DNA from: a virus
Reading direction: 5' to 3' (one strand)
Length of the DNA stretch: 64,000 nucleotides
IMG/VR virus record: IMGVR_UViG_3300045988_156245
Every line of letters starts with the position of its first letter. Position 1 is the stretch's first letter. Of the stretch, positions 1 to 58,386 are shown piece after piece. The notes beneath the pieces were generated by a model. It worked only from the letters and a program-made list of their open reading frames with translations. It was not told the origin of the DNA and searched no databases. A program made the position numbers and the translations under genes.

Positions 1-21
1 ATTTTTTTTGTTTAAAAAGGC

Positions 22-8278: not shown

Positions 8279-10456
8279 CTAAATAGTATCCAATGCTCTA
8301 GTGCAAGATATAGACATTGTGCCTTCCGCTTCTAGAGGGATTGAATAAGATTCTATTATATAATCTCCATATATTTCACTCTTTTTATCTAAAACAGATA
8401 TACGAATATTTGGCTCAAGATAATAAATTGGAATACTTTCTATTTCAATACTCTCATTTAAACTTACGCATTGATATAATAAATCTCTAGCTGCATAAAA
8501 AGCACTATTCCAAATAGCACTTGTTTTAGATAAATTTTTATAAATAGATGAAGGAACCAATATATATCTTTGCCCAGTTAATAAGTAATCATCAATTTCT
8601 TTTTGAGTATCTTCTCCCACTGTATAATCTTCATTACATTCAATTAAAACATAATCAGGAATATCAGGTTCAAAAATACAATTAACTTTACTATCAGAAT
8701 ATGATTTAGTTCTTTTTCCAATATTATCTATACTATATTTAGCAACTTCTGTATTGCTATCTATAATATCTAAATAATATTTAACATTATACATATTAAT
8801 ATCTGTTTTTGCTATATATTTATTGTTTTCTATAGAATAAAATGCAGGCCACGCCTCTTCTAGTTCTATAAAATAATTATTAGTATCTCCGCCGGAACGA
8901 GTACCCTCAATCCCGCTTAAATATAAATCATCTCTCCAATTAGGTGGTGTTATAGTGTCTACTATTGTAGCATCTTTTAATATAACATAATCTTTAATTT
9001 TAGGATTCCATTGATAAAAAATATTAGTTGAAATATCTCTATAAACTAATTCATTCACTCCTATTTTAGGAAAATTATCATAATTAGAATAATCAATACT
9101 AACCAATAATCTATTATTTGTTTTATCATAAACAAAATTATTATATTTATGGTTACTCCAATTTGCGGGAATTGTATCAATAGCTAAATGATAACGTATT
9201 TGAGTAGCAGTTCCATCTATACCTTTCGCTTCGCCCCATACTATAAAATCATTCTTTATATTTTCCCATTTCGGAGAATTAGAATAAGAAATAAATAAAT
9301 CTGGATTATTAAATACATATGTAGCATTGCTTTTGCCTATTTCAGATAAATAAGCATCTTTTTCTAAATTTAATAATTTGTTTAAATCTCCCGTTGCTTT
9401 TGAAGTATTTAAGTAATTTTGAATTTCTCTAAATACAAAATTTCCATCTATATCATAAAAATATTCAAAATTGCCAAGTGTATCTTTTATTTTATCTAAG
9501 ATTGAAGTGATAGAATCTCCTGCATTTGCTTGTAATCCATTTGCATCATCTTCTGCGGGGTATACTAAATCTTCATAAAGACCACCAATATAATCTCCTT
9601 CAGAAAAGTATAAATTACCTAAACCATTAGTAGAGAAACTATATCCTGCAGCAGGTGGCGTTGGTACATCTTCTATTTTTTCAACAGTATCACCTAAATA
9701 ATAAATACCATTGTGGCTATCATTTTGAGCAAAATAAATTCCTTGTTTTTTCTCTTGTGTATTATTATTATTATTATCTTCACTTGTCGTAGTAGTTGTC
9801 ACTTTTTTCTTTTTCCACATCATTCCCATAATTGCGGTTTTAGGAACTCCATCAATAATAATTTTACTTAATTGCTCTCCACCCCAATGATTTACTAATT
9901 CAGTAATTAATTGATATATTGTTATTTGCTCTGTTACAATTGCTCCAGTAGCTTTATCAAGAGTATCAAAAGTATCTAAATATACAGAAGCGGGGAATGT
10001 GCCTCCACAATCGCCATTTAATAAACACATTTTATCTTGTAAATTCATTGATATTATTAAACCAGCTTCACTATTAGAAAAAGATGGAGACTGCATTACA
10101 TAAATACCTTGTGGAAACCATATATAATCATAATCAGCATATTGCGGATATTCTTTCTTTAAAGTATTTTTAATACCTATTTGTAAAGAAACCTTTCTAT
10201 TGATAACAAATAATTGCTTTAAATCCATGCTATCATAGTCTACAGTATCCGCAATAAATTCTAAACTAGCTGTTCTTCTCACGGTAGAGCTACCATCAAT
10301 ACTAATGCTACCGGAAGTAACCCTACCAGTTACTTCCGCAATAGCTCTTTCTTCTTTTGTTAAAACTATAACTTTTATAATCTTTGTTTTTATTTTTTCT
10401 AAATCCAACTGATGTAAAAACAAAGAATCAGATAAGTAAGAAAAATTATTTATCAT
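8279..10456 (-). CDS. large distal-tail/baseplate protein (Tal-like position)
   Basis: 725 aa from the ATG at 10456 (10 nt after ggagag); second large gene after the tape measure; poly-Asn/Thr linker. Confidence 0.45.
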   Translation of the reverse strand: MINNFSYLSDSLFLHQLDLEKIKTKIIKVIVLTKEERAIAEVTGRVTSGSISIDGSSTVRRTASLEFIADTVDYDSMDLKQLFVINRKVSLQIGIKNTLKKEYPQYADYDYIWFPQGIYVMQSPSFSNSEAGLIISMNLQDKMCLLNGDCGGTFPASVYLDTFDTLDKATGAIVTEQITIYQLITELVNHWGGEQLSKIIIDGVPKTAIMGMMWKKKKVTTTTTSEDNNNNNTQEKKQGIYFAQNDSHNGIYYLGDTVEKIEDVPTPPAAGYSFSTNGLGNLYFSEGDYIGGLYEDLVYPAEDDANGLQANAGDSITSILDKIKDTLGNFEYFYDIDGNFVFREIQNYLNTSKATGDLNKLLNLEKDAYLSEIGKSNATYVFNNPDLFISYSNSPKWENIKNDFIVWGEAKGIDGTATQIRYHLAIDTIPANWSNHKYNNFVYDKTNNRLLVSIDYSNYDNFPKIGVNELVYRDISTNIFYQWNPKIKDYVILKDATIVDTITPPNWRDDLYLSGIEGTRSGGDTNNYFIELEEAWPAFYSIENNKYIAKTDINMYNVKYYLDIIDSNTEVAKYSIDNIGKRTKSYSDSKVNCIFEPDIPDYVLIECNEDYTVGEDTQKEIDDYLLTGQRYILVPSSIYKNLSKTSAIWNSAFYAARDLLYQCVSLNESIEIESIPIYYLEPNIRISVLDKKSEIYGDYIIESYSIPLEAEGTMSISCTRALDTI

Positions 10457-38523: not shown

Positions 38524-39636
38524 TTAAGATTTTTTAGCTGGCTTTTTGTTACGGCATACCTTGCATATACTATAAAAGCCGTCACGACTCGTTTTATTTT
38601 TAGAAAAGAATTTATTATGAGCTAATTTAATTTCTCCACATCTTGAACATTTTTTCCATTGACCTTTTTCTTCTTCTGTATAATGCCAGATTAAATAATC
38701 TTCTACCGCCTTCTCCGCAATTAATTTTGGAATTTTATTTCTCCATAAAGATGATAAATATTCAACAGTATAAGTCATATTGTATTTTTCTTGTAACAAT
38801 TGTTGTATTTCTATATTCTGTTTACCATCTATTTTATATATCATTAAATCATAATATAGGGGATAATCAAATTTTAGAGTTCTGTCAACTAAATCTTCTA
38901 AGTCTTTCATTAAATAATAAGAATCACTGCTAAATTTATCAAAACAATCTTCTTTTAATTTACCATAATTGCACAATAATGCAGAAATATGTTTTGGATT
39001 AAAAAATGAAATTAATCCATCATTATGAGGTATACCATTCTCATCTATTGAAAATTTATCACTAAAATCTATTTTACTAAAACTTTTAATAGCATTAACA
39101 CTATACATTGGTGGTTTATATGCATTTTTTATTACGTATTGGTCTTTACGCATTTCTATAATTTGCTTTTTTAATAAATATTTTTTCTTACCTCTTGCAT
39201 TTTTAGCTTTTTCTTCTACTTTTTCTATTGCATCTCTAAGGTCTTTTAAAGCGGGGATTTCCGCCACATCTTTCTCTGTAATTTCAAATTTTGGTTTAAA
39301 AATAATATTTTTATCATTTGCAATAATATTATAGATACCATCTTCGCCATTTTCAAATTTACCTACAAGTCCTTCAAAAGACATCTCTCTTTCATTTACT
39401 GTTACCATTCTATTGTCAGTTAATATCTTTTTCTTTTTTCTTTCTTCTTTATCCATTGCAAATACTATATAATCTGTTAATATACTTATATATCTTTTTG
39501 AAAGTTTTTCAGGAGGCGTTTCAGCTATAATCTTTTTTACTAATTCATTGCGGGCTTCCGGTGTTTCAAGCGTATAATCTAGCTTTAATCTGCCATCATC
39601 GGCCACCGCCGCATTTTCATACATTGTCTCTGTCAT
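38524..39636 (-). CDS. hypothetical protein with C-terminal zinc ribbon; first gene of late operon
   Basis: 370 aa; C-terminal CSRCGEIK...DGFYSICKVC motif common in phage DNA-binding/HNH-associated zinc ribbons. Confidence 0.5.
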   Translation of the reverse strand: MTETMYENAAVADDGRLKLDYTLETPEARNELVKKIIAETPPEKLSKRYISILTDYIVFAMDKEERKKKKILTDNRMVTVNEREMSFEGLVGKFENGEDGIYNIIANDKNIIFKPKFEITEKDVAEIPALKDLRDAIEKVEEKAKNARGKKKYLLKKQIIEMRKDQYVIKNAYKPPMYSVNAIKSFSKIDFSDKFSIDENGIPHNDGLISFFNPKHISALLCNYGKLKEDCFDKFSSDSYYLMKDLEDLVDRTLKFDYPLYYDLMIYKIDGKQNIEIQQLLQEKYNMTYTVEYLSSLWRNKIPKLIAEKAVEDYLIWHYTEEEKGQWKKCSRCGEIKLAHNKFFSKNKTSRDGFYSICKVCRNKKPAKKS

Positions 39637-41889: not shown

Positions 41890-42114
41890 ATGATAACTTT
41901 ACAATTTACACTATTCAGTACAACAGGTAAATACAAACCAGTAACTACTTTAATAAAGGTTGATAGTGTGCAACAGTACAATGAGAATAAACATAAATAT
42001 CAACAAAGAGCAATCACTAAAATGTGTGCAGAAAAACATACTACTTGGTGGGCATTAAAGAGCAACGGTTTTACAAAATTAAAAGTAAGGGTTTATCCTA
42101 AAAATAATAGTTGA
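41890..42114 (+). CDS. hypothetical protein (74 aa)
   Basis: ATG after gagaggag RBS, downstream of the promoter at 41828. Confidence 0.55.
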   Translation: MITLQFTLFSTTGKYKPVTTLIKVDSVQQYNENKHKYQQRAITKMCAEKHTTWWALKSNGFTKLKVRVYPKNNS

Positions 42115-43182: not shown

Positions 43183-43352
43183 GACTTTTTTTGAAAAAAT
43201 CCTGAGAAAAATTGCACAAAAAAGATACTGAATTTTTGTTACTATTTGCTATTGATTTTAAAAGTCAATAGTAAATATTAACAAAAATTTTGCTGTAAAC
43301 TTTATCTGTTTTTGTGCAAATTGCTAAAGTTAAAAAACTTTTGTAAAAACTA

Positions 43353-43381
43353 TAGACAAAACCAAAAAAAAGCTGTATAAT
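43353..43381 (+). promoter_or_regulatory. promoter with conserved leader
   Basis: TAGACA-N17-TATAAT; leader acataagataaagaaaggg plus hairpin 43405-43422. Confidence 0.5.
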
Positions 43382-43437
43382 GTTTACATAAGATAAAGAA
43401 AGGGAGCGACCAAGGGGTCGCTGATAGGTAAAACAAA

Positions 43438-43713
43438 ATGATGAATCTTACAGAAAGAATTAAAAAAGTTGAAGAAATTAGCAGACAGTTACAAATAGCA
43501 TACCCACAATATAGTAATAAAGATATTGAATCATTTAATTTGAATTGTATAAAATCAATTGGAGATTTTGCTTTTATTGCTATTTTTGCTAATGTAGACT
43601 GTTATACAATAACTTTATATAACTCAATAGGGTTTAAAAAAATAGAAATAGAAAAAAATGATATTGATTTTCAATACCTTTATAAAATAATAGAAATATT
43701 TATGGAAAGATAA
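43438..43713 (+). CDS. hypothetical protein (91 aa)
   Basis: ORF behind the conserved leader. Confidence 0.6.
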   Translation: MMNLTERIKKVEEISRQLQIAYPQYSNKDIESFNLNCIKSIGDFAFIAIFANVDCYTITLYNSIGFKKIEIEKNDIDFQYLYKIIEIFMER

Positions 43714-43723
43714 AAAGAGGTAA

Positions 43724-43736
43724 GGGGGGGGGGGGG
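43724..43736 (+). repeat. G13 homopolymer tract
   Basis: 13 consecutive G immediately 5' of the ATG at 43737. Confidence 0.9.
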
Positions 43737-43774
43737 ATGAAAAGCCCCCACACAATAAAAAAGAGGTGTTTAAA

Positions 43775-43912
43775 ATGAAACAAAAATATTTTGAAATAGG
43801 TAACCGACTAACAACTGGCTTAGGACTTGAAAATAAAACAGTGATTAAATACTGGAAAGCATACGAAAAAAATAATTTTTTTGTCTGCTGGCTAATATCT
43901 AAAGTGGCATAA
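43775..43912 (+). CDS. small ORF (45 aa) coupled to a 13-codon leader ORF
   Basis: leader ORF 43737-43778 (MKSPHTIKKRCLK) ends in ATGA overlapping the ATG at 43775; aagaggtg RBS; terminator follows. Confidence 0.4.
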   Translation: MKQKYFEIGNRLTTGLGLENKTVIKYWKAYEKNNFFVCWLISKVA

Positions 43913-43964
43913 ATGCCACTTTTTATTTTTGTGCGTTCGGTCTACCCGAACGTACGTTCGGAGC
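43900..43964 (-). ncRNA. candidate antisense small RNA c
   Basis: minus-strand promoter 43971-43999; RNA begins ggcuccgaacguacguucggguagaccgaacgc with mutually exclusive CCGAAC/GUUCGG pairings. Confidence 0.3.
43903..43930 (+). terminator. rho-independent terminator
   Basis: agtggcat/atgccact stem followed by tttttattttt. Confidence 0.6.
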
Positions 43965-43970
43965 CGAAAA

Positions 43971-43999
43971 ATTATATCATATATGTGTCAAGTTGTCAA
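43971..43999 (-). promoter_or_regulatory. antisense consensus promoter c
   Basis: reverse complement TTGACA-acttgacacatatatga-TATAAT (N17, TGn). Confidence 0.6.
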
Positions 44000-44056
44000 G
44001 AGAAAAAAATGAAATTTTTTCAATTAAATAATTTTATCCCAAAATTAAAAAGGTGC

Positions 44057-44085
44057 TTGACTATTCGGTTATTATACTGTATAAT
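44057..44085 (+). promoter_or_regulatory. promoter
   Basis: TTGACT-N17-TATAAT. Confidence 0.6.
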
Positions 44086-44121
44086 TGTATACAGATAGAG
44101 AGATATAGGAGGCTTAATAAT

Positions 44122-44430
44122 ATGATTAATATTAGAACAATTAAAAAGTTACAAAATAATGACGGATTAACATTAAAAGGTGGTAAGTGTATCACTTATA
44201 AATCAGGTTATCAGGTAGCAACAGAGGGAATCGAAACAACAAACCCTCAAGAGGCTATACAAGCCGTTAGGGCATACGGCGGGAATTGCGGTGTATGGTT
44301 TGAAAATGGTATCTATTATATAGATAAAAGCCACAGAGTAACCACAAAAAAAGACGCTTTACAGTTAGGGAGAGAAAAAAATCAAATAAGCATTTTACAA
44401 TGGCGAACAATGAAATTAATATATTGTTAA
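44122..44430 (+). CDS. hypothetical protein (102 aa)
   Basis: ATG after the aggagg RBS. Confidence 0.6.
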   Translation: MINIRTIKKLQNNDGLTLKGGKCITYKSGYQVATEGIETTNPQEAIQAVRAYGGNCGVWFENGIYYIDKSHRVTTKKDALQLGREKNQISILQWRTMKLIYC

Positions 44431-44448
44431 AAAGGGGAAACCCTTTTT
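44429..44448 (+). terminator. short terminator hairpin
   Basis: aaaaagggg aaa cccttttt. Confidence 0.45.
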
Positions 44449-44460
44449 AACTTTTTGTTG

Positions 44461-44740
44461 TGACTAACAGAAGTTAGTCTTGACTAACTGTTATTAGTAT
44501 TATCTAACTATAGTTAGTTTAGTCTAATTTTAATTAGTGATGTCTAACTATGGTTAGTCTAGACTAACTGAAGTTAGAAGTGTCAAACTTTAGTTACTAT
44601 AGGCTAACTTTGATTGGTTGTTTGAAACTCAGGTTAGTATAGGCTAACCGCAGTTAAGTGTTTGAAACTCTTGTTAGGTGTAACTAACCAGAGTTAGTAT
44701 AGGCTAACTCAAATTAGTTATTTGAAACTCTTGTTTTATT
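44461..44740. repeat. array 1: 14 phased 20-bp units with CTAAC-N4-GTTAG palindromes
   Basis: exact 20-bp register from 44461; arms conserved, centres and spacers variable; 40-bp super-period in the right half. Confidence 0.9.
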
Positions 44741-44743
44741 AAG

Positions 44744-44783
44744 CGGACCGTGGACATTGGACCTTATTTTTGTCCACGGTCCG
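44744..44783 (+). other. conserved GTGGACA hairpin, copy 2
   Basis: 13-bp stem cggaccgtggaca/tgtccacggtccg, 14-nt loop ttggaccttatttt. Confidence 0.75.
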
Positions 44784-44793
44784 TCTGGTCCAG

Positions 44794-44814
44794 CCGAACA
44801 TACGTTCGGGTTTT
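44794..44814 (+). terminator. CCGAAC-atac-GTTCGG terminator
   Basis: 6-bp GC-rich stem plus tttt; identical copy at 49289-49309. Confidence 0.6.
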
Positions 44815-44998
44815 AAACTGATTAAAAAACATCAAGTTGATTGATGTTTTTTATCCCATAAAATAAATCAAGTTAGTTGATGTTTTTTAATCAGTAAAAT
44901 ATATCAAATTCCTTGATATATTTTAATTTGAAATATTTTTATTTATTTTTGTGCAAATTGTACAAAAATTCAATGTAAATTTTGTGCAATATTCCCCC

Positions 44999-45027
44999 TT
45001 GCAATTATACACCGTAGGGTGTATAAT
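44999..45027 (+). promoter_or_regulatory. promoter with conserved leader
   Basis: TTGCAA-N17-TATAAT; leader acataagataaagaaagg plus hairpin 45052-45068. Confidence 0.55.
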
Positions 45028-45083
45028 GTATACATAAGATAAAGAAAGGAACACCCCACAAGGGGGTGGAAAGGTAAAACATT

Positions 45084-45368
45084 ATGAACAAAAATTATTC
45101 AATTGAAAAAGACAATCCATATTACAGGGAGATAGTCTGCCTTGAGATAATAGGCGAGCATATCGACGAATCCGACAAGTGTTTCTTATGTTATCAGAGA
45201 AAAGTATGGGAAGAAGTTGAGGATGGAGAAATAGAACATATGGGATTTGAACCTATTTGTTCATTAGATGAACCAATACCTAACAAAAATATTCCAACCC
45301 TCACTGTTAGTAGTAGTGAAATTGAGGATATTGAAGAAAATGATAAATATGTATGGGTAGCAAAATAA
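45084..45368 (+). CDS. hypothetical acidic protein (94 aa)
   Basis: ORF behind the conserved leader. Confidence 0.6.
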   Translation: MNKNYSIEKDNPYYREIVCLEIIGEHIDESDKCFLCYQRKVWEEVEDGEIEHMGFEPICSLDEPIPNKNIPTLTVSSSEIEDIEENDKYVWVAK

Positions 45369-49122: not shown

Positions 49123-49136
49123 TAAAAAATCAATAG

Positions 49137-49167
49137 GCAAGTTGCACAAAATGTGACTTGCTTTTTT
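49137..49167 (+). terminator. terminator
   Basis: gcaagt/acttgc stem (loop carries a TTGCACAAA box) then tttttt. Confidence 0.5.
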
Positions 49168-49182
49168 GTGCAAAATTACTAC

Positions 49183-49211
49183 TTGACAAAGTGCGGCGGA
49201 TGTGCTATAAT
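49183..49211 (+). promoter_or_regulatory. promoter of candidate small RNA
   Basis: TTGACA-N17-TATAAT; the -10 context atgtgcTATAAT is identical to the promoter at 53770. Confidence 0.55.
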
Positions 49212-49217
49212 AAAATG

Positions 49218-49309
49218 GGACTCTATAGACTCATATATTTCAGATGTTTGTCGGCTCGTCGATGGTTGAGACGAGCCGAGTTGTCAAGCCGAACATACGT
49301 TCGGGTTTT
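49218..49309 (+). ncRNA. candidate small RNA with hairpin variant copy 4 and CCGAAC terminator
   Basis: 10-bp stem tcggctcgtc/gacgagccga (49251-49279), then ccgaac-atac-gttcgg plus tttt (49289-49309); no RBS. Confidence 0.4.
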
Positions 49310-49385
49310 AAATTGATTAAAATACATCAAGAACCTTGACTTATTTTATCCCATAAAAAACATCAAGTTGATTGATGTATTTTAA

Positions 49386-49640
49386 TCTAACAAAAGTTAG
49401 ACACAACTAATTCTAGTTAGGCTTGACTAACCCCAGTTAGCCTAAACTAACTAAAGTTAGTTACTATTAATTTAAGTTAGCTGTAACTAACTTTTGTTAG
49501 CCACCTCTCATTAAAGTTTTGTTAAACTAATTTTAGTTAGATTGCCCCTAATTCAAGTTAGTTATAACTAACGCAAGTTAGACTTCACAAATAAAAGTTA
49601 GTTAAAACTAACAGCAGTTAGATTAAACTATCGTCATTTT
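49386..49640. repeat. array 2: 13 phased 20-bp units with CTAAC-N4-GTTAG palindromes
   Basis: left arms at 49387, 49407, 49427, 49447, 49467, 49487, 49507, 49527, 49548, 49568, 49588, 49608, 49628; GTTAG arm nearly invariant; alternate units read aACTAAY. Confidence 0.9.
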
Positions 49641-49747
49641 GCACAAAATTTTCAATTGAAAAATTTTGTATGATTGCACAAAAAATAATATCCCCAACCC
49701 CGCATTTTTGTGCAATCTGCTAAAGTTAATTAAAATGATAACAAAGT

Positions 49748-49775
49748 ATTGTTTTTTGTAACGCATTTGATATAA
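49748..49775 (+). promoter_or_regulatory. promoter (weak -35, extended -10)
   Basis: TTGTTT-N16-TGaTATAAT; 75-nt leader with hairpin gtgctt/aagcac 49781-49800. Confidence 0.45.
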
Positions 49776-49849
49776 TAGACTTGTGCTTGATAAATAAAGC
49801 ACTTGAACATTTACAATTTAATATTTTAAGAGAAAGGTGGTAATATTTT

Positions 49850-50459: not shown

Positions 50460-51437
50460 ATGAACAAGAAATTTTATTTAACAGTAGACACCGAAACGGC
50501 AACAATTCCATTTGCAAATCAGATTTGCAAAAATGCTAATCAAAAACAGAAAATTGCGATTGCTAAACCTTTAGTATATGATATTGGTTGGAGCATTACC
50601 GACAGACAAGGTAATATCGTAAAAACAGAAAACTTTTTAGTTCAGGAAACGTTCTTTGTTCCTAACGTTTTCAATACTGCTTATTACAGAGATAAAAGAC
50701 CTATTTATATGGAATTGTTAGAAAAAGGCGAGATTAAAGTTGATTGCTGGAATAACATTATGAAGTTATTCATCGCAGACCTTGAAAAAGTTGATATTTC
50801 AACTGCCTACAATGCGTGTTTTGATTTTAAAAAGGCAATACCATTTACTGAACGTTATATCAAGGCTTTATATTCAAGTGACTATCAAAAATGGGAAGAT
50901 AGACAAAAAAAGAGTTGTGAGGACATTCTTAATAATCGCAGTAATGCTAAAAATGAAGAATATCTAAATCCATATTTTGAATTAAGGGGCGTACAGTACC
51001 CTATAGCCGACTTATGGTGTATTGCTTGTGAACGTTTAATAAACATCAATAAATACAGAAACTTTTGTCTTGATAGAGGTTATGTAACAAACAGTGTAGT
51101 ATTTTTCAAATCATCAGCCGAAACATCATTTCAATATTTAATGAACAACTATGATTTTATCGAGGACCACACCGCATTATCGGACGCACTAATTGAAAGC
51201 CAGATTTTAACAAAAGCCTTGAAAAAGGGCAAAATTGAGCCTACATTATATGCGTTTCCGTTTAGGGATTTAGGTTCAACTATAGATTATGCAATAGACA
51301 CAAACCATAAATATATTGAGCCATTATACGAATTGTTATTAAAATATATTGAAAATAATGATGGTTTTGACAAAGGTGGGGCATATTGGAAGAAGATTAT
51401 GAAAGAACTTGAAAAACTTGAAAATGCAAACTTTTAA
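50460..51437 (+). CDS. DEDDh (DnaQ-like) 3'-5' exonuclease
   Basis: 325 aa from the ATG at 50460; ExoI LTVDTETA, ExoII YNACFDF, ExoIII HTALSDA. Confidence 0.7.
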   Translation: MNKKFYLTVDTETATIPFANQICKNANQKQKIAIAKPLVYDIGWSITDRQGNIVKTENFLVQETFFVPNVFNTAYYRDKRPIYMELLEKGEIKVDCWNNIMKLFIADLEKVDISTAYNACFDFKKAIPFTERYIKALYSSDYQKWEDRQKKSCEDILNNRSNAKNEEYLNPYFELRGVQYPIADLWCIACERLININKYRNFCLDRGYVTNSVVFFKSSAETSFQYLMNNYDFIEDHTALSDALIESQILTKALKKGKIEPTLYAFPFRDLGSTIDYAIDTNHKYIEPLYELLLKYIENNDGFDKGGAYWKKIMKELEKLENANF

Positions 51438-51559: not shown

Positions 51560-51931
51560 ATGACAAACAAAAAAATGACAAAGAGAGATTATTTTAACGG
51601 ACTTTTAGGAGTGATTGAAAATCACAAAGATAGCATTGAGAATTATGAAGATTTTAAGGCTTTCATTGAAAGAGAGATTGAATTACTTAATAAGAAACGT
51701 AGCAATTCAAAACCAACAAAGACACAGATTGAAAATGAAAAAATCAAAGAAAAAATTCTTGAGGTTTTAACAGATGTAAATGAAGTTATGACAATTTCTG
51801 AATTAATGACTGCTGACGGTTTAGAAAATTATTCAAATCAGAAACTTTCAGTTTTATGTCATCAGTTAGTAAATGAGCATAAGGTAGTCAATACCAAAGT
51901 AAAAAAAGTTTCATATTTCAAAATTGCCTAA
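51560..51931 (+). CDS. hypothetical winged-helix-like protein, paralog A
   Basis: 123 aa; shares EIELLNKKRS..KPTKTQIENEKI...MTI.E(L/M)M....L..YSNQKLS.LC with 53238-53633. Confidence 0.6.
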   Translation: MTNKKMTKRDYFNGLLGVIENHKDSIENYEDFKAFIEREIELLNKKRSNSKPTKTQIENEKIKEKILEVLTDVNEVMTISELMTADGLENYSNQKLSVLCHQLVNEHKVVNTKVKKVSYFKIA

Positions 51932-52413: not shown

Positions 52414-52580
52414 CAATGTTACATATTGTATGAGTGCGGGGGAGCCGGTATTAGTGACTTTTACCTAAATACAATATGTGATATGTCACGTACTATGTTA
52501 CATATTATAATATGTGATATATCACACGCAAGGTCACATATTACAATATGTGATATGTTACATACAATATGTGACCTTAA
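52405..52580. repeat. cluster of ATATGTGAT / ATCACAT direct and inverted repeats with 7-bp phasing
   Basis: acaatatgtgatatgt(c/t)ac at 52471, 52543, partial 52564; tgtgatatatcaca palindrome 52513-52526; tcacatatt-ac-aatatgtga palindrome 52534-52553. Confidence 0.8.
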
Positions 52581-53237: not shown

Positions 53238-53633
53238 ATGGAAAAGATGATAAAGAGAACTAAAAGAGCAATGTATGAAGAAATTATGAAAATGGTAGAG
53301 GGCAAAGAAAGAGTTGCAACCGAAGAAGAAATTATTGCTTTCTGCGAACACGAAATTGAACTCTTAAACAATAAGAGAAGTGGCTCAGGTAAACCAACAA
53401 AGACACAGATTGAAAATGAGAAAATTATGGAAACTATCTATTCAGTTCTTGAAAATGCGGGTGTCGGAATGACAATTACAGAAATGATGAAAACTGATGA
53501 ATTAAATGCTTATTCAAATCAGAAATTATCTGCTCTTTGCAAGAAAATGTATGAAAATGAGAAAATTCAGAAGAAAATCATCAAGAAAAAGTCATTTTTC
53601 GCTGTAAAAGGTGTAGAAATCACTGAAAAGTAG
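53238..53633 (+). CDS. hypothetical winged-helix-like protein, paralog B
   Basis: 131 aa; paralog of 51560-51931. Confidence 0.6.
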   Translation: MEKMIKRTKRAMYEEIMKMVEGKERVATEEEIIAFCEHEIELLNNKRSGSGKPTKTQIENEKIMETIYSVLENAGVGMTITEMMKTDELNAYSNQKLSALCKKMYENEKIQKKIIKKKSFFAVKGVEITEK

Positions 53634-54935: not shown

Positions 54936-55140
54936 CACTCTACTTAATTTCACTTAATTTTATATAATTCTACTCAATTTTACTCAGTTTTATTTATTTT
55001 CTGCTCAAATTTTATTTAATCTTTACTTAATCTTACTTATTTTCCACTCAATTTTTTATTTACCTTCACTTAATTTTATCTTATCTACTCTACTTAATTT
55101 AACTTACTTTAATTTTATCTTATCTTTATCCCACTTTCCC
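54936..55140. repeat. degenerate array of about 11 (C/T)ACT(T/C)AATTTTA-like direct repeats
   Basis: ctctacttaattt, cacttaatttta, tactcaatttta, actcagtttta, gctcaaatttta, tacttaat, cttacttatttt, cactcaatttttt, cacttaatttta, tacttaattta, cttactttaatttta at 10-22 bp intervals. Confidence 0.7.
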
Positions 55141-55681: not shown

Positions 55682-55799
55682 GGTAACACTTCATTAACAT
55701 TTTTAATTAAACTTGGTACACTTTATTAACAATCATTTAAGCAAAGTTGGTACACTTTTTTAACATTTATTTAAAATTTTTTGGTACACTTTATTAACA
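55682..55799. repeat. four 17-18-bp iteron-like direct repeats, 33-34 bp phasing
   Basis: ggtaacacttcattaaca 55682, ggtacactttattaaca 55715, ggtacacttttttaaca 55749, ggtacactttattaaca 55783. Confidence 0.85.
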
Positions 55800-55805
55800 T
55801 TTTTC

Positions 55806-56432
55806 TTAAATAATTTTTGTTTTAACTTCTTCTTCATTAAAATTTAAAGTATTATTAACACTGTCTAAATAATATTTAGTTTTATTGCCTTCCATTTGAG
55901 CATGGTATTCAATTAAATCTAATTTTTTTAAAACAAAAAGTATATCTAATATAGTTTGATTACTAGCCCCTTTATTTTTAGTACTTAAACCTAAAATAGC
56001 TTTAATATAGCTTAAAGAAAAAGGTCCAGATTTTTCTTCGTTTTTATACCATATCTTAATTAAAATTGCTAATACAGATAAACTTCTTTCTTTTAATGTA
56101 TTAACTAAAACCCTAACAGTATTAATAGGCAATAGAGTAGCAATATTACTATCTAATACAACTAATTCATACATCTTTACTTCTTCATTATAAATAATAA
56201 GACCACTATCTAATAAATTATGAAAATTTTTTGATGCAGTTTGTCTTGTTATTCCTAATCCTTCTGCAAGATTAACAAATTTACAATCTTCCTTTTTTAC
56301 AAATCTAGCTTCCATATCTGGAAAAGTTACAGAAATAGATTGCAAATAACCATACATTCTGTCTGAATAGGTTCTACTAGATAAATAATGCTTATCACTA
56401 GGCATTTGTCTTGAATTTTTTTCTATTTTCAT
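55806..56432 (-). CDS. double winged-helix DNA-binding protein (RepA-like initiator or repressor candidate)
   Basis: 208 aa; two wHTH-like segments NLAEGLGITRQTASKNFHNLLDSGLIIY and YIKAILGLSTKNKGASNQTILDILFVLKKLDLIEY; flanked by inverted iteron arrays. Confidence 0.45.
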   Translation of the reverse strand: MKIEKNSRQMPSDKHYLSSRTYSDRMYGYLQSISVTFPDMEARFVKKEDCKFVNLAEGLGITRQTASKNFHNLLDSGLIIYNEEVKMYELVVLDSNIATLLPINTVRVLVNTLKERSLSVLAILIKIWYKNEEKSGPFSLSYIKAILGLSTKNKGASNQTILDILFVLKKLDLIEYHAQMEGNKTKYYLDSVNNTLNFNEEEVKTKII

Positions 56433-57276: not shown

Positions 57277-58386
57277 ATGACAACTATTATACAAACTGGA
57301 ACTAAATATGATTTATATGATTCAAGTATACAGACACATCAGTCTTTACCTGCGGGAATCTATAAGGTAACTTTTAACCCTCAGTCAGGACATCAATTAT
57401 TATATGTTGCGGATAAGAATGATATTAAAGAAAAAATTTATGGCGTTCATACAAAGAAAGTTGAAAAAGTATTAAATACATTTCGTAACTTCAATAGAAG
57501 CGAAGGAGTGTTATTAAGCGGCGATAAAGGTATTGGTAAATCTTTATTCACTAAATTATTAACAAATGCGGTAATTGATATGGGATTACCAGTTATTTAT
57601 GTTAATGAAGCTAGTCCAAATTTAGGGGATTATATTGATAGTATTCCTACTGAATGTATGATTTTATTTGATGAATTTGATAAAACTTTTAGTTCTCCTT
57701 ATGAACAAAATGATTTATTATCACTTTTTGACGGAACTTCTCGTAATAAAAAGTTATTTGTAATTACTTGTAATAATTTAGATAGCCTTAGTTCATTTTT
57801 GGTAAATAGACCAGGAAGATTTCATTATCATATCTGCTTTAAATATCCTACATCAGAAGATATTGTAAAATATTTAAAAGATAAGTTAGATGAAAAATAT
57901 TGGGGCGAGATACCAAAAGTAGTAAAGCGAGCAACCGCAATTAAAACAAACTATGATACTTTAAGAGCAATAGCTTATGAACTTCAGCAAGGTTGGTCTT
58001 TTGAAGAAGCAATAGAAGATTTAAACATTGATAAAGGTAATAAAACAATTTATTTTAATATATGCTATACGCAAAAAAATAAAGAACGTCATAGTCTTAA
58101 AGTACCATTTGTTCCTTCTAAAGTAGAAGCGGAAAAGGTAAAATTATCACTTACAGATAAATTGGGAAATTTTATTGGTGAAGCAATATTTTCTACTGAT
58201 GATTTTTACTTTGATATAAATGATAATGATTTTAAACTTAATATAGAAAAAGCAACTTATCAGTTTAGCACAATTAAACGTGGTATATATATGTCACAGG
58301 ATGGAGAAGAAATTGTAACTGACAAAGACAAAGAAAATGCAGTTATCACTGAAATTGTTATTACCAATATATCAGAAGATTTTTGA
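57277..58386 (+). CDS. classic-clade AAA ATPase
   Basis: 369 aa; Walker A LLSGDKGIGKS, Walker B MILFDEFD, sensor-1 VITCNN, SRH NRPGRFHY; about 130-aa C-terminal domain of unknown type. Confidence 0.75.
   Translation: MTTIIQTGTKYDLYDSSIQTHQSLPAGIYKVTFNPQSGHQLLYVADKNDIKEKIYGVHTKKVEKVLNTFRNFNRSEGVLLSGDKGIGKSLFTKLLTNAVIDMGLPVIYVNEASPNLGDYIDSIPTECMILFDEFDKTFSSPYEQNDLLSLFDGTSRNKKLFVITCNNLDSLSSFLVNRPGRFHYHICFKYPTSEDIVKYLKDKLDEKYWGEIPKVVKRATAIKTNYDTLRAIAYELQQGWSFEEAIEDLNIDKGNKTIYFNICYTQKNKERHSLKVPFVPSKVEAEKVKLSLTDKLGNFIGEAIFSTDDFYFDINDNDFKLNIEKATYQFSTIKRGIYMSQDGEEIVTDKDKENAVITEIVITNISEDF

What the first reader, a model, noticed from the sequence alone, without database searches (positions are those of the whole stretch)
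44461..44740. Array 1: fourteen exactly phased 20-bp units built on the palindrome CTAAC-N4-GTTAG
Read directly: 44461-44740 is 14 x 20 bp in perfect register. Each unit carries (g/a)CTAAC-nnnn-GTTAG, for example gactaac-agaa-gttagtc at 44462, ctaac-tata-gttag at 44504, ctaac-tatg-gttag at 44544, ctaac-tgaa-gttag at 44564 and actaac-caga-gttagt at 44683. Other units have degenerate arms such as gaaac/gttag or ctaac/attag. The 5-bp arms are kept while the 4-nt centre and the 6-nt spacer differ in every unit. That pattern indicates selection on a dyad-symmetric protein site or an RNA stem, not a recent tandem duplication. The right half has a 40-bp super-period (tataggctaac... alternating with gtttgaaactc..gttag, 3 copies). 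The array is ORF-free. It sits between the terminator of the 102-aa gene (44429-44448) and the conserved GTGGACA hairpin plus terminator (44744-44814). Phased 20-bp sites are known from type II partition centromeres (pSK41 parC bound by ParR), lambda-type origin iterons and the repeat-rich T5 injection-stop region. No par or replication gene is adjacent here, so the cognate binder would have to be one of the many uncharacterised small early proteins. An alternative is that the array is transcribed as a string of 5-7 bp hairpins acting as an RNA or DNA decoy for a host factor.
Basis: partly seen in the sequence, partly recalled or inferred. Interest (0 to 1): 0.85.

Follow-up and report, generated by a model that had tools for sequence, protein, structure and literature searches.

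The report
Phased palindromic protein-binding arrays in phage
Two non-coding stretches of an abundant, uncultured gut phage are long, exactly spaced rows of a short palindromic DNA word that look like docking sites for a still unidentified DNA-binding protein. They are conserved across a clade of related phages, yet some close relatives do without them.

Summary
Positions 44461-44740 hold 14 units of exactly 20 bp built on CTAAC-N4-GTTAG. A twin array of about 13 units lies at 49384-49643. The window has 11 exact sites against 0.03 expected, and all 11 are in the two arrays.

- **Anatomy.** The extended site is A-CTAAC-T-nn-A-GTTAG-T. Half-site centres alternate 9 and 11 bp apart, about one per helical turn.
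- **Selection.** Among five close relatives the arms vary less than the centres and spacers (9% versus 23-27% of columns, p=0.001). Indels are whole units.
- **Spread.** The same phased motif, up to 29 units, occurs in about 30 IMG/VR loci of an SPbeta-like gut and rumen phage clade.
- **DNA, not RNA.** The two arms vary independently, with no covariation in 324 units. This fits a double-stranded DNA site for a dimeric protein and argues against an RNA or DNA hairpin.
- **Dispensable.** One 91-96% identical relative has lost the array-1 cassette, and two relatives have shrunk array 2 to 1.5 sites. An essential origin, packaging site or centromere is therefore unlikely.
- **Cellular use.** The motif also serves as a cellular operator, in front of XRE genes, in feoAB promoters and, as GTTAG-N6-CTAAC, upstream of DtxR-like genes.

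The binder is unidentified; four candidate phage gene families failed co-occurrence tests. My best reading is a cooperative operator or titration array in the early region. I class it as a new variant of a known kind.

The parts
44461..44740 (.). Array 1: 14 x 20 bp units (13 credible plus 1 vestigial) of A-CTAAC-T-nn-A-GTTAG-T. The right half has a 40-bp super-period.
49384..49643 (.). Array 2: about 13 units of the same motif, with 6 perfect sites and a single +1 slip in the spacer at 49544.
44426..44451 (+). Intrinsic terminator of the 102-aa gene, 10 bp before array 1.
44122..44430 (+). 102-aa gene (family F7) immediately upstream of array 1. It is next to an array in all 8 array-bearing loci tested but is also present in 7 of 33 loci without arrays. 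Function unknown.
44744..44783 (+). Hairpin with a 13-bp stem (CGGACCGTGGACA / TGTCCACGGTCCG), invariant among close relatives.
44794..44814 (+). CCGAACATACGTTCGG + GTTTT: a weak terminator-like hairpin. It is also a perfect CGAAC-N4-GTTCG palindrome, the architecture of the Firmicutes LexA box. A second copy is at 49289-49308 and a third box at 43947.
44823..44927 (.). Three 36-bp AT-rich repeats, each with an ATCAA-N5-TTGAT palindrome. The same element precedes array 2 (49325-49378).
44999..45027 (+). Promoter TTGCAA-17-TATAAT of the next early gene (ATG at 45084), preceded by TTGTGCAA motifs.
49183..49211 (+). Perfect TTGACA-17-TATAAT promoter. It has no credible ORF before array 2 and lies 176 bp upstream of it.
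43403..45020 (.). Cassette of small genes, array 1 and hairpins that is absent from relative L055. It is bounded by repeated promoter-leader sequences at 43341-43440 and 44987-45086.
51560..51931 (+). Family F2: a 123-aa protein with an N-terminal helical hairpin and a C-terminal winged helix (AlphaFold2 pLDDT 85). Paralogue at 53238-53633. Candidate binder only; co-occurrence with arrays is not specific.

Best explanation
The array, together with its twin at 49.4-49.6 kb, is a lattice of recognition sites on double-stranded DNA. Inverted AGTTAGT half-sites have centres alternating 9 and 11 bp apart, so there is about one per helical turn, all on roughly one face of the helix.

A dimeric sequence-specific DNA-binding protein of the helix-turn-helix or winged-helix type would fill this lattice cooperatively. 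Perfect sites would help degenerate neighbours, and the result would be a long nucleoprotein filament. The filament would sit in the non-coding junctions between early transcription units that are driven by consensus host-type promoters.

I think its role is regulatory and accessory. It would act as a boundary or roadblock and as a high-capacity sink that sets the free concentration, and so the timing, of its binder. I do not think it is an essential cis element such as an origin, packaging site or centromere.

Shown:
- the lattice geometry;
- purifying selection on the arms and on the phase;
- independence of the two arms;
- conservation across a phage clade;
- loss or shrinkage in close relatives;
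- use of the same phased motif as an operator by cellular repressors.

Inferred:
- that a protein binds at all;
- cooperativity and filament formation;
- the regulatory or titration role.

Unknown: the identity of the binder, and whether the phage or the host encodes it.
For: **Real and non-random.** There are 11 exact sites against 0.03 expected, all in the two arrays.

**Geometry.**
- The extended 16-bp dyad comes from 249 sites.
- In non-redundant phage loci, CTAAC-N4-GTTAG occurs 148 times, against 1 at N3 and 0 at N5.
- GTTAG-N6-CTAAC occurs 168 times, against 1 at N5 and 1 at N7.

**Selection.**
- Arms are variable in 9% of columns, against 27% for centres and 23% for spacers, among five close relatives (p=0.0012).
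- Indels are exact unit multiples: -20 bp in MT835855 and -40 bp in L057.

**Spread.** The doubled motif hit 30 IMG/VR loci, most with 20-bp-phased arrays of up to 29 units in a single phased run. They share early and SPbeta-like structural genes with the window.

**DNA site rather than a hairpin.**
- Watson-Crick pair counts equal the expectation for independent columns at all 7 candidate pairs.
- Single-arm changes number 12-50 per pair, and double changes occur at chance frequency.

**Strong and weak sites alternate.** Mismatch strings such as 3030300 and 0203031 fit cooperative filling.

**Placement.**
- The arrays lie in terminator-to-promoter junctions of a region with 13 perfect sigma-A-type promoters.
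- In L014, runs of 3 or more sites (3-4 at most promoters) sit 33-78 bp upstream of the -35 element of six consensus promoters.

**Accessory.**
- L055 lacks the array-1 cassette.
- L055 and L056 have 1.5 sites in place of array 2, with 91-96% identical flanks.

**The same phased motif is a bona fide operator elsewhere.**
- It forms doublets directly upstream of 74-aa HTH_3 genes.
- It overlaps the -35 and -10 elements of feoAB promoters.

**Lineage-specific motif sets.** Related phages carry other palindrome families in the same intergenic positions, as expected for lineage-specific regulator and operator sets.
Against: - No binder was identified. Four phage gene families that sit near arrays also occur in related phages without any site: the F2 winged helix, the F7 102-aa gene, the F11 74-aa gene, and a roughly 150-aa family next to arrays in L002, L014, L019 and L022.
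- No recognisable HTH or ribbon-helix-helix domain was found in the other small early ORFs.
- Arrays of 13-29 sites are far more than a promoter needs.
- Most sites do not overlap core promoters.
- There is no consistent orientation of arrays relative to promoters, so the regulatory logic is not evident.
- Both arrays sit beside AT-rich repeats, which would also suit an origin.
- Only about 84 kb of a roughly 130-kb genome was seen, so a par, rep or repressor gene could lie elsewhere.
Confidence: 0.5

Rival explanations
1. Host-factor array. The sites are copies of a host repressor's operator, most plausibly that of a DtxR-family metalloregulator. The phage would use them either to tie early transcription to the host's metal status or, multiplied by genome copy number, to titrate the repressor. 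Titration would de-repress host genes such as feoAB during infection.
For: - The phased doublet overlaps the -35 and -10 elements of feoA-feoB promoters in two Lachnospiraceae MAGs (metagenome-assembled genomes) and one Spirochaetales MAG. The Spirochaetales one is divergent from a gene with Fe_dep_repress and Fe_dep_repr_C domains.
- The doublet precedes a TonB-receptor operon in Succinivibrio.
- In 35 distinct metagenome loci with homologues of that DtxR-like gene, GTTAG-N6-CTAAC (up to 1 mismatch) occurs 13 times, against 0 at N5 and 0 at N7. Four of these lie 64-83 bp upstream of the gene.
- GTTAG-N6-CTAAC is exactly the inter-unit junction of the phage arrays (10 exact in the window).
- The motif is invariant in phages of GC 0.29-0.45, while no phage gene family tracks it.
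- The F2 recognition helix is not strongly conserved.
- The phage encodes iron-sulfur-dependent anaerobic NrdD and NrdG.
- From established knowledge, DtxR and IdeR boxes are built from TTAGG/CCTAA-type pentamers, and the corynephage tox gene is controlled by host DtxR.
Against: - The evidence is motif resemblance only.
- CTAAC-N4-GTTAG itself is almost absent near the DtxR-like homologues (1 of 36).
- Unrelated regulators also use the motif: an XRE in candidate-phyla-radiation (CPR) bacteria, and something upstream of a GH32 gene in Tessaracoccus.
- The host of this phage is unknown.
- Relatives use other palindrome families, which fits co-evolving phage regulators at least as well.
- Close relatives thrive with 1.5 sites.
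Confidence: 0.15
2. Partition centromere or episome tether. A centromere-binding protein coats the repeats and links phage DNA to a segregation motor or to the nucleoid, as with parC/ParR, tubC/TubR, the N15 sopC sites or the EBV family of repeats.
For: - Tandem 20-bp phased repeats bound cooperatively are the hallmark of the pSK41 parC centromere (established knowledge).
- Repeat number is labile, as it is in centromeres.
- A winged-helix protein is encoded 1.9 kb downstream of array 2. Its fold matches include the AspA centromere-binding protein, at weak E-values.
Against: - No ParA, ParM or TubZ-like gene was found in about 84 kb examined.
- The 339-aa neighbour carries DEDD exonuclease motifs.
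- Some relatives carry sites at nearly every early promoter (L014), unlike a centromere.
- The gene content looks virulent, with its own Pol III alpha, NrdDG and dUTPase and no integrase or plasmid-replication gene seen.
- Arrays are lost in close relatives.
Confidence: 0.08
3. Replication-origin iterons. An initiator binds the phased dyad-symmetric repeats and melts the adjacent AT-rich 36-bp repeats, as with the lambda O protein at ori-lambda or SPP1 G38P at oriL and oriR.
For: - The repeats are phased and dyad-symmetric at about 20 bp.
- Both arrays abut AT-rich repeat blocks (44823-44927 and 49325-49378).
- Strong promoters nearby could give transcriptional activation.
- Two origins in one phage is known for SPP1 (established knowledge).
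Against: - No initiator gene contains or adjoins the arrays.
- A more typical origin-like module lies at 54.9-58.4 kb. It has 10-bp and 34-bp repeats flanking a winged-helix ScpB-like gene, followed by an AAA+ ATPase with DnaC-like or clamp-loader-like matches.
- L014 has about 10 separate clusters in 14 kb.
- L055 has lost one array and nearly all of the other.
Confidence: 0.07
4. Transcribed repeat RNA. The array is expressed as a non-coding RNA whose repeated stems sequester an RNA-binding host factor or a toxin, in the manner of CsrB or ToxI.
For: - In several loci a perfect promoter with no ORF points into an array 30-180 bp away: window P49183, L005, L007, L013 (a convergent pair), L017 and L022.
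- The RNA fold has a z-score of -5.3.
Against: - There is no covariation at any arm pair, and about a quarter of units carry single-arm changes that would break a 5-bp stem.
- The minimum-free-energy structure is long-range pairing, not unit hairpins.
- Promoters point away as often as in (24 versus 17), and many arrays have no promoter within 250 bp.
- Array 1 lies just after a terminator.
- There is no Rfam match.
- The units are far more divergent than type III antitoxin repeats, and no toxin gene follows them.
Confidence: 0.04
5. A functionless minisatellite that expands and contracts by slippage or unequal recombination.
For: Copy number differs among close relatives, and indels are unit multiples.
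Against: - The arms are conserved while centres and spacers have diverged to near randomness within an array.
- Arms evolve about three times more slowly than the rest.
- The same 10 arm bases and both spacings are kept in phages of very different base composition.
Confidence: 0.03

Closest known systems
pSK41 parC / ParR (type II partition centromere)
   Same: Both have head-to-tail 20-bp repeats in exact phase that would let a small dimeric DNA-binding protein coat the DNA cooperatively. In both, the repeat number is variable.
   Different: - Here each unit is a dyad-symmetric 5-N4-5 palindrome.
- There are 13-29 units rather than a handful.
- There are two or more arrays per genome.
- No parM or parR genes are adjacent or seen in about 84 kb.
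- Close relatives lack the arrays.
Lambda-type origin iterons (O protein at ori-lambda; SPP1 oriL and oriR)
   Same: Both have phased, dyad-symmetric repeats of about 19-20 bp next to an AT-rich block.
   Different: - The arrays are not inside or beside an initiator gene.
- They have many more copies.
- They can be lost naturally.
- A separate origin-like module exists at 54.9-58.4 kb.
Dispersed phage operator sets: SPbeta SPBRE bound by MrpR (PMC10516654), mycobacteriophage L5 stoperators, 434-type 14-bp operators
   Same: - All involve a short motif repeated in early intergenic DNA of a phage.
- In the SPbeta case the phage belongs to the same broad lineage, with YonD, YonF and YonG-like structural genes.
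- Relatives of this phage carry single copies of other palindromes at many early promoters.
- The layout of a 14-bp site plus a 6-bp spacer resembles adjacent Cro/CI-type operators.
   Different: - SPBRE and stoperators are single sites, not tandem arrays.
- Most sites here do not overlap core promoters.
- No cognate repressor was found; in particular, no tyrosine-recombinase-fold MrpR homologue was seen in the window.
DtxR/IdeR-family metalloregulator operators
   Same: - Both use inverted GTTAG/CTAAC-type pentamers read by a dimer.
- GTTAG-N6-CTAAC lies upstream of DtxR-like genes.
- Phased CTAAC-N4-GTTAG doublets lie in feoAB promoters.
   Different: - Cellular operators have 1-4 sites, against 13 per array here and up to 29 in a single phased run in relatives.
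- The classical 19-bp DtxR box has a different spacing.
- Nothing shows that such a protein binds the phage DNA.
Epstein-Barr virus oriP family of repeats (EBNA1) and the E. coli datA locus (DnaA titration)
   Same: Both are tandem or clustered high-affinity sites for one dimeric or oligomeric DNA-binding protein, acting as a tether or as a titration sink rather than as a promoter operator.
   Different: These are unrelated organisms and proteins, and the EBV repeat has a 30-bp period. The comparison is conceptual only.

Membership tests
Type II partition centromere (parC) | Array of short phased direct repeats | tested here: met
   There are 14 and about 13 units of 20 bp.
Type II partition centromere (parC) | Lies directly upstream of, and contains the promoter of, a parM (actin-like ATPase) - parR operon | tested here: not met
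   No actin-like, tubulin-like or ParA gene was found in the window or in 10 kb upstream. The 339-aa gene after array 2 has DEDD exonuclease motifs.
Type II partition centromere (parC) | Confers segregational stability together with its binder and motor | not testable with these tools
   This needs a plasmid-stability assay.
Iteron-type replication origin | Phased initiator-binding repeats next to an AT-rich unwinding element | tested here: inconclusive
   Repeats and adjacent AT-rich 36-bp repeats are present, but nothing shows unwinding or initiator binding.
Iteron-type replication origin | Located within or beside the cognate initiator gene, and indispensable in cis | tested here: not met
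   There is no initiator nearby. L055 and L056 have lost or collapsed the arrays. An alternative origin-like module lies at 54.9-58.4 kb.
Phage repressor operator set (SPBRE/MrpR, stoperators, Cro/CI operators) | Conserved short motif recurring in early intergenic regions | tested here: met
Phage repressor operator set (SPBRE/MrpR, stoperators, Cro/CI operators) | Cognate repressor gene whose presence tracks the motif | tested here: not met
   Families F2, F7, F11 and the 150-aa family all occur in related phages without sites. There were no Pfam HTH_3, ribbon-helix-helix or integrase-fold hits among the early ORFs.
Phage repressor operator set (SPBRE/MrpR, stoperators, Cro/CI operators) | Sites overlap or directly block promoters | tested here: inconclusive
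   Sites lie 33-78 bp upstream of the -35 element in L014 and 30-180 bp downstream of promoters elsewhere. Many arrays have no promoter within 250 bp.
DtxR-family operator | Inverted GTTAG/CTAAC-type pentamers at the spacing used by a DtxR-like dimer | tested here: met
   GTTAG-N6-CTAAC occurs 13 times near DtxR-like genes, against 0 at N5 and N7. The same junction occurs 10 times in the window and 168 times in the phage loci.
DtxR-family operator | Bound by a DtxR-family protein present in the infected cell | not testable with these tools
   The host is unknown. No DtxR homologue was found in the window, the phage loci or IMG/VR.
Structured repeat RNA (CsrB-like sponge, type III antitoxin) | Base pairing maintained by covariation | tested here: not met
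   Observed Watson-Crick counts equal the independent expectation at all pairs, and double changes occur at chance frequency.
Structured repeat RNA (CsrB-like sponge, type III antitoxin) | Dedicated promoter and terminator; for type III systems, a toxin gene immediately downstream | tested here: not met
   Promoter orientation is unbiased, 17 in and 24 out. Array 1 follows a terminator. No Rfam family matches. The downstream genes are a 94-aa protein and a 160-aa hydrophobic protein, both of unknown function.
T5 injection-stop region | Repeat-rich block at a fixed distance from the first-entering genome end | not testable with these tools
   The genome ends of this phage are unknown.

The most novel reading that the evidence does not exclude
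The arrays are phage-borne decoy operators. Each consists of a dozen or more phased copies of the operator of a host repressor, most plausibly a DtxR-family iron or manganese regulator. Multiplied by phage genome copy number, they would titrate that repressor and switch on host metal uptake such as feoAB. Alternatively they would make early phage transcription sense the host's metal status. Either way this would be a natural transcription-factor sponge made of DNA.
Probability: 0.12. Interest if true: 0.85.

Novelty: new variant of a known kind. Interest (0 to 1): 0.6.

Why it matters
- **Abundance.** The phage is very common in human gut metagenomes. One of its proteins is found with an identical sequence on 188 contigs, and the longest contigs are about 130 kb. 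Its clade is uncultured.
- **An experimental handle.** The arrays are a sharply defined, selectable cis element with an unknown partner. A simple DNA pull-down could identify a new regulator, or a host factor the phage exploits. That would open up the logic of an early region packed with consensus host promoters.
- **If the binder is phage-encoded.** The arrays would be an unusually large cooperative operator or sink, a possible timing device.
- **If the binder is the host's.** They would be the first natural DNA sponge for a bacterial transcription factor in a phage.
- **Natural controls.** Relatives with and without arrays already exist for comparison.

Tried and rejected
1. **RNA or single-stranded DNA hairpin reading.** Rejected on the covariation test, the predicted fold, Rfam and promoter orientation.

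2. **ParM or TubZ next to array 2.** The 339-aa gene has DTET and H-x4-D exonuclease motifs on my reading of the translation, and Pfam finds nothing.

3. **F2 winged-helix paralogues as the binder.**
   - The fold is a generic MarR/ArsR/Z-alpha/AspA-like winged helix.
   - 14 loci with distant F2 homologues have no palindrome arrays.
   - L055 keeps F2 although its arrays are gone.
   - Verdict: unproven.

4. **F11 (41890-42111).** It is enriched in array-bearing loci (7 of 8 against 1 of 33). However, six loci from three look-ups of further F11 homologues have no site. Rejected as a specific partner.

5. **F7 (44122-44430) and a roughly 150-aa family that always lies beside sites in L002, L014, L019 and L022.** Both also occur in phages without sites.

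6. **XRE regulator.** The 74-aa HTH_3 protein that sits behind the doublet in candidate-phyla-radiation (CPR) genomes has no homologue in the window or in the clade's array-bearing phage loci; its only match, L009, is the CPR-type XRE element itself.

7. **DtxR homologue encoded by the phage.** None was found.

8. **Cultured relatives.** A BLAST search of an array against 50,697 GenBank phage records found only the unannotated MT835855. A tBLASTn search with F2 likewise found only that record.

9. **Literature search for the motif.** Nothing useful turned up. The sequence of SPBRE is not given in the text of PMC10516654.

10. **Two homologous-protein searches on F2.** They returned almost only sequences 97% or more identical (one at 72%), so they gave no depth for structure prediction.

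11. **Cluster look-up.** It gave no host or accession information.
Full report

Yes. Positions 44461-44740 read as 14 consecutive 20-bp units in exact register. Counted on the ten arm bases, units 1-13 have 0-2 mismatches to CTAAC/GTTAG, and unit 14 is a vestige.

Exact CTAACNNNNGTTAG occurs 11 times in the window against 0.03 expected from dinucleotide shuffles. With one mismatch allowed the count is 18 against 1.5 expected. All exact sites fall in this array or in a second one at 49384-49643. The second array has about 13 units, 6 perfect sites and a single +1 slip in a spacer.

Tandem Repeats Finder confirms periods of 20, 40 and 80. No ORF of 40 aa or more overlaps the array.

**2. Context**

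The window comes from a phage of about 130 kb with 29% GC that is very common in human gut metagenomes.

- Positions 1-39.6 kb hold minus-strand structural genes. The large terminase is 44-47% identical to those of Enterococcus phage H1, Geobacillus E3 and phAss-1, and more distantly to SPbeta YonF-type terminases. Relatives carry YonD and YonG domains.
- Positions 40-54 kb form a plus-strand early region of small genes of unknown function. The 39.7-54 kb stretch has 12 perfect TTGACA-16..18-TATAAT promoters, and a 13th lies at window position 22.
- Upstream of the window lie Pol III alpha, NrdD/NrdG, dUTPase and RuvC.
- Both arrays sit in long intergenic junctions (44431-45083 and 49123-49849). 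These junctions share other modules:
  - a CCGAACATACGTTCGG-GTTTT hairpin;
  - 36-bp AT-rich repeats with ATCAA-N5-TTGAT;
  - TTGTGCAA/TTGCACAA motifs;
  - a promoter for the next gene.

**3. Anatomy**

A logo from 249 non-redundant sites extends the motif to the 16-bp dyad A-CTAAC-T-nn-A-GTTAG-T. Half-site centres are 9 bp apart within a unit and 11 bp apart between units. That gives one half-site per helical turn, alternating in orientation.

Both spacings are rigid. In non-redundant phage loci CTAAC-Ng-GTTAG occurs 148 times at g=4, once at g=3 and never at g=5. GTTAG-Ng-CTAAC occurs 168 times at g=6 and once each at g=5 and g=7.

Many arrays alternate good and poor units, with mismatch strings such as 3030300 and 0203031. 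This produces the 40-bp super-period.

**4. Selection**

Among the window and four relatives of 90-94% identity, 9% of arm columns vary, against 27% of centre columns and 23% of spacer columns (Fisher p=0.0012). Indels are whole units: -20 bp in MT835855 and -40 bp in L057.

A scan of IMG/VR for two adjacent perfect sites returned 30 loci. Most have 20-bp-phased arrays; the longest single phased run has 29 units. Their GC content ranges from 0.29 to 0.49. Nearly all share early or structural genes with the window, so this is a clade feature. Only the unannotated MT835855 matches among 50,697 GenBank phage records.

**5. Duplex DNA or hairpin?**

Over 324 non-redundant units the number of Watson-Crick pairs at each of seven candidate pairs equals the expectation for independent columns. 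For example, pair 4/9 has 219 observed against 219.8 expected. Single-arm changes are frequent, 12-50 per pair, and double changes occur at chance frequency.

The caveat is that units were defined by 3 or fewer arm mismatches, which slightly disfavours double changes. The expectation was computed on the same set.

As RNA, the array folds into long-range inter-unit helices rather than unit hairpins. Rfam finds nothing. Consensus promoters within 250 bp of arrays point in 17 times and out 24 times, and many arrays have none nearby.

The arms therefore behave as two independent half-sites of a dimer site on duplex DNA.

**6. Dispensability**

L055 is 91-96% identical to the window across the region. 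It lacks window positions 43403-45020, which hold four small ORFs, array 1 and the hairpins. The deletion joins two copies of a repeated promoter-leader cassette.

In L055 and L056, array 2 is replaced by a segment containing one full site and one half site. An essential origin, packaging site or sole centromere is therefore unlikely.

**7. Position relative to promoters**

- In L014, runs of 3 or more sites (3-4 at most promoters) lie 33-78 bp upstream of the -35 element of six perfect promoters, beyond an A-tract.
- In the window (P49183) and in L005, L007, L008, L013, L017 and L022, a perfect promoter with no ORF points into an array.
- In L013 and L055 convergent promoters flank the sites.
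- Other arrays have no promoter nearby.

I could not extract a single rule. The common denominator is placement in terminator-to-promoter junctions.

**8. Origin or centromere?**

A more conventional origin-like module lies at 54.9-58.4 kb. It has a 10-bp-period repeat and 34-bp repeats flanking a ScpB-like winged-helix gene, followed by an AAA+ ATPase.

No partition ATPase was seen in about 84 kb. The 339-aa gene after array 2 carries DEDD exonuclease motifs.

**9. Search for the binder**

- **F2 (51560-51931; paralogue at 53238-53633).** It models confidently as a helical hairpin plus a winged helix, with pLDDT 85. The fold matches are generic MarR/ArsR/Z-alpha/AspA types. It lies within 0.04-5 kb of arrays in nine loci. 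However, loci with distant homologues have no arrays, and its recognition helix is only moderately conserved.
- **Association test.** I compared early-region gene families between 8 array-bearing and 33 array-free relatives. This singled out F11 (7 of 8 against 1 of 33) and F7 (8 of 8 against 7 of 33). Further F11-bearing phages have no sites, and F7 and a 150-aa family also occur without sites.
- **Other small ORFs.** No Pfam DNA-binding domain was found.

The binder remains unknown.

**10. The motif in cellular genomes**

The same doublet occurs in 22 stretches of GTDB genomes.

- In Saccharimonadales and Limnocylindria it lies directly upstream of a 74-aa HTH_3 (XRE) gene. The same element appears as viral locus L009.
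- In two Lachnospiraceae and one Spirochaetales genome it overlaps the -35 and -10 elements of feoA-feoB promoters. The Spirochaetales one is next to a DtxR-family gene.
- In Succinivibrio it precedes a radical-SAM and TonB-receptor operon.
- Among 35 distinct metagenome loci with homologues of that DtxR-like gene, CTAAC-N4-GTTAG is nearly absent. GTTAG-N6-CTAAC, with up to 1 mismatch, occurs 13 times, against none at N5 or N7. Four occurrences lie 64-83 bp upstream of the gene. That is the inter-unit junction of the phage arrays.

This shows that cellular dimeric repressors read this motif and this phase. It also makes a host binder conceivable. No DtxR homologue was found in phage DNA.

**11. 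Relatives without CTAAC arrays**

Among 80 loci fetched through the sigma-like gene, only the W-like group plus L168, L170, L177 and L178 carry the arrays. Others carry different palindrome families in early intergenic DNA:

- CTTTA-N6-TAAAG;
- TGTTAA...TTAACA;
- GTTAGTGCTAACTAAC.

These are mostly single sites per junction. This resembles lineage-specific operator sets such as SPBRE/MrpR in SPbeta. It argues for co-evolving regulators, although different host factors are not excluded.

**12. Conclusion**

The finding is real and selected. It is best read as a cooperative protein-binding lattice on duplex DNA, with an accessory regulatory or titration role in the early region (confidence about 0.5).

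The rivals, in order of likelihood, are:

1. a host-repressor array, either co-opted or acting as a decoy;
2. a centromere;
3. origin iterons;
4. a repeat RNA;
5. a neutral minisatellite.

It is a new variant of a known kind, namely operator, iteron or centromere-type repeat arrays. It is notable for its size, its strict geometry, its spread in an abundant uncultured gut phage clade, and its overlap with cellular operators.

Noticed in passing
window 43947-43960, 44795-44808, 49290-49303; also L013 219-248 and L057, L161, L162: Perfect CGAAC-N4-GTTCG palindromes occur 3 times in the window against 0 expected. This is the architecture of the Firmicutes LexA (Cheo) box. Two are the terminator-like hairpins beside the arrays. 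One lies just downstream of the -10 element of the antisense promoter at 43999-43971. Relatives keep them next to their arrays. They may mark SOS-linked control of the early region.
   Followed up: partly
window 39.7-54 kb; L013, L014, L022: Perfect TTGACA-16..18-TATAAT promoters are extremely dense: 13 in the window, and one every 300-500 bp in L014. Several are antisense or lead into non-coding DNA. In L013 back-to-back and convergent pairs flank the arrays.
   Followed up: partly
window 44823-44927 and 49325-49378: 36-bp AT-rich repeats carry the palindrome ATCAA-N5-TTGAT (CATCAAGTTGATTGATG) and a TTATCCCAT word. They always lie beside the CGAAC hairpin. This looks like a second operator-like family.
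   Followed up: no
window 41.5-52.7 kb: TTGTGCAA/TTGCACAA occurs 18 times in the window, 16 of them in the early region. It usually lies just upstream of a -35 element, and the same holds in L007 and L017. This looks like a third regulator-site family.
   Followed up: no
window 54941-55083, 55686-55819, 55806-56432 (-), 57277-58386 (+): A 10-bp-period repeat (13.6 copies) and 34-bp repeats flank a ScpB-like winged-helix gene and an AAA+ ATPase with DnaC-like or clamp-loader-like matches. This is a likely replication-origin module.
   Followed up: partly
window 52470-52567: A 36-bp repeat (2.7 copies) contains the palindrome TGTGATATGTCACA, just after the F2-F5 gene pair.
   Followed up: no
window 43341-43440 and 44987-45086: A promoter-plus-leader cassette is repeated: TGTATAATGTwTACATAAGATAAAGAAAGG, a hairpin, then GGTAAAAC and ATG. 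Recombination between the two copies accounts for the loss of the array-1 cassette in L055. This resembles the promoter and stem-loop shuffling cassettes of T4-type phages.
   Followed up: partly
L202, L216, L230/L231, L189, L199, L173: Relatives without CTAAC arrays carry other palindrome families in early intergenic DNA: CTTTA-N6-TAAAG (up to 9 per 20 kb, and a dense 33-42-bp-period cluster in L230 at 8700-9300), TGTTAATTTTTTAACA, and GTTAGTGCTAACTAAC.
   Followed up: partly
L032, L046, L050, L053 (GTDB MAGs) and L009 (IMG/VR): Two CTAAC-N4-GTTAG sites 20 bp apart lie directly upstream of a 74-aa HTH_3 gene. The neighbourhood includes what read, by eye, as RadC-like and PLD-nuclease-like genes, in Saccharimonadales and Limnocylindria genomes. 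This appears to be an autoregulated mobile or defence-island cassette.
   Followed up: partly
L039, L044, L047, L036; L142, L146, L150, L152: Phased CTAAC/GTTAG sites overlap feoAB promoters in gut anaerobes. A single GTTAG-N6-CTAAC lies 64-83 bp upstream of the gene start of DtxR-like genes. This looks like an undescribed operator for a two-domain DtxR subfamily.
   Followed up: partly
window 50460-51437: The 339-aa early gene begins MNKKFYLTVDTET and contains DHTALSDA. Read by eye these are DEDDh 3'-5' exonuclease motifs, although Pfam gives no hit.
   Followed up: no
window 38524-39636 (-): A sigma-factor-like protein (phrog_5767) has a C-terminal zinc-ribbon-like tail. It is divergently transcribed from the early region and conserved at 53-100% identity in at least 138 IMG/VR stretches.
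   Followed up: no
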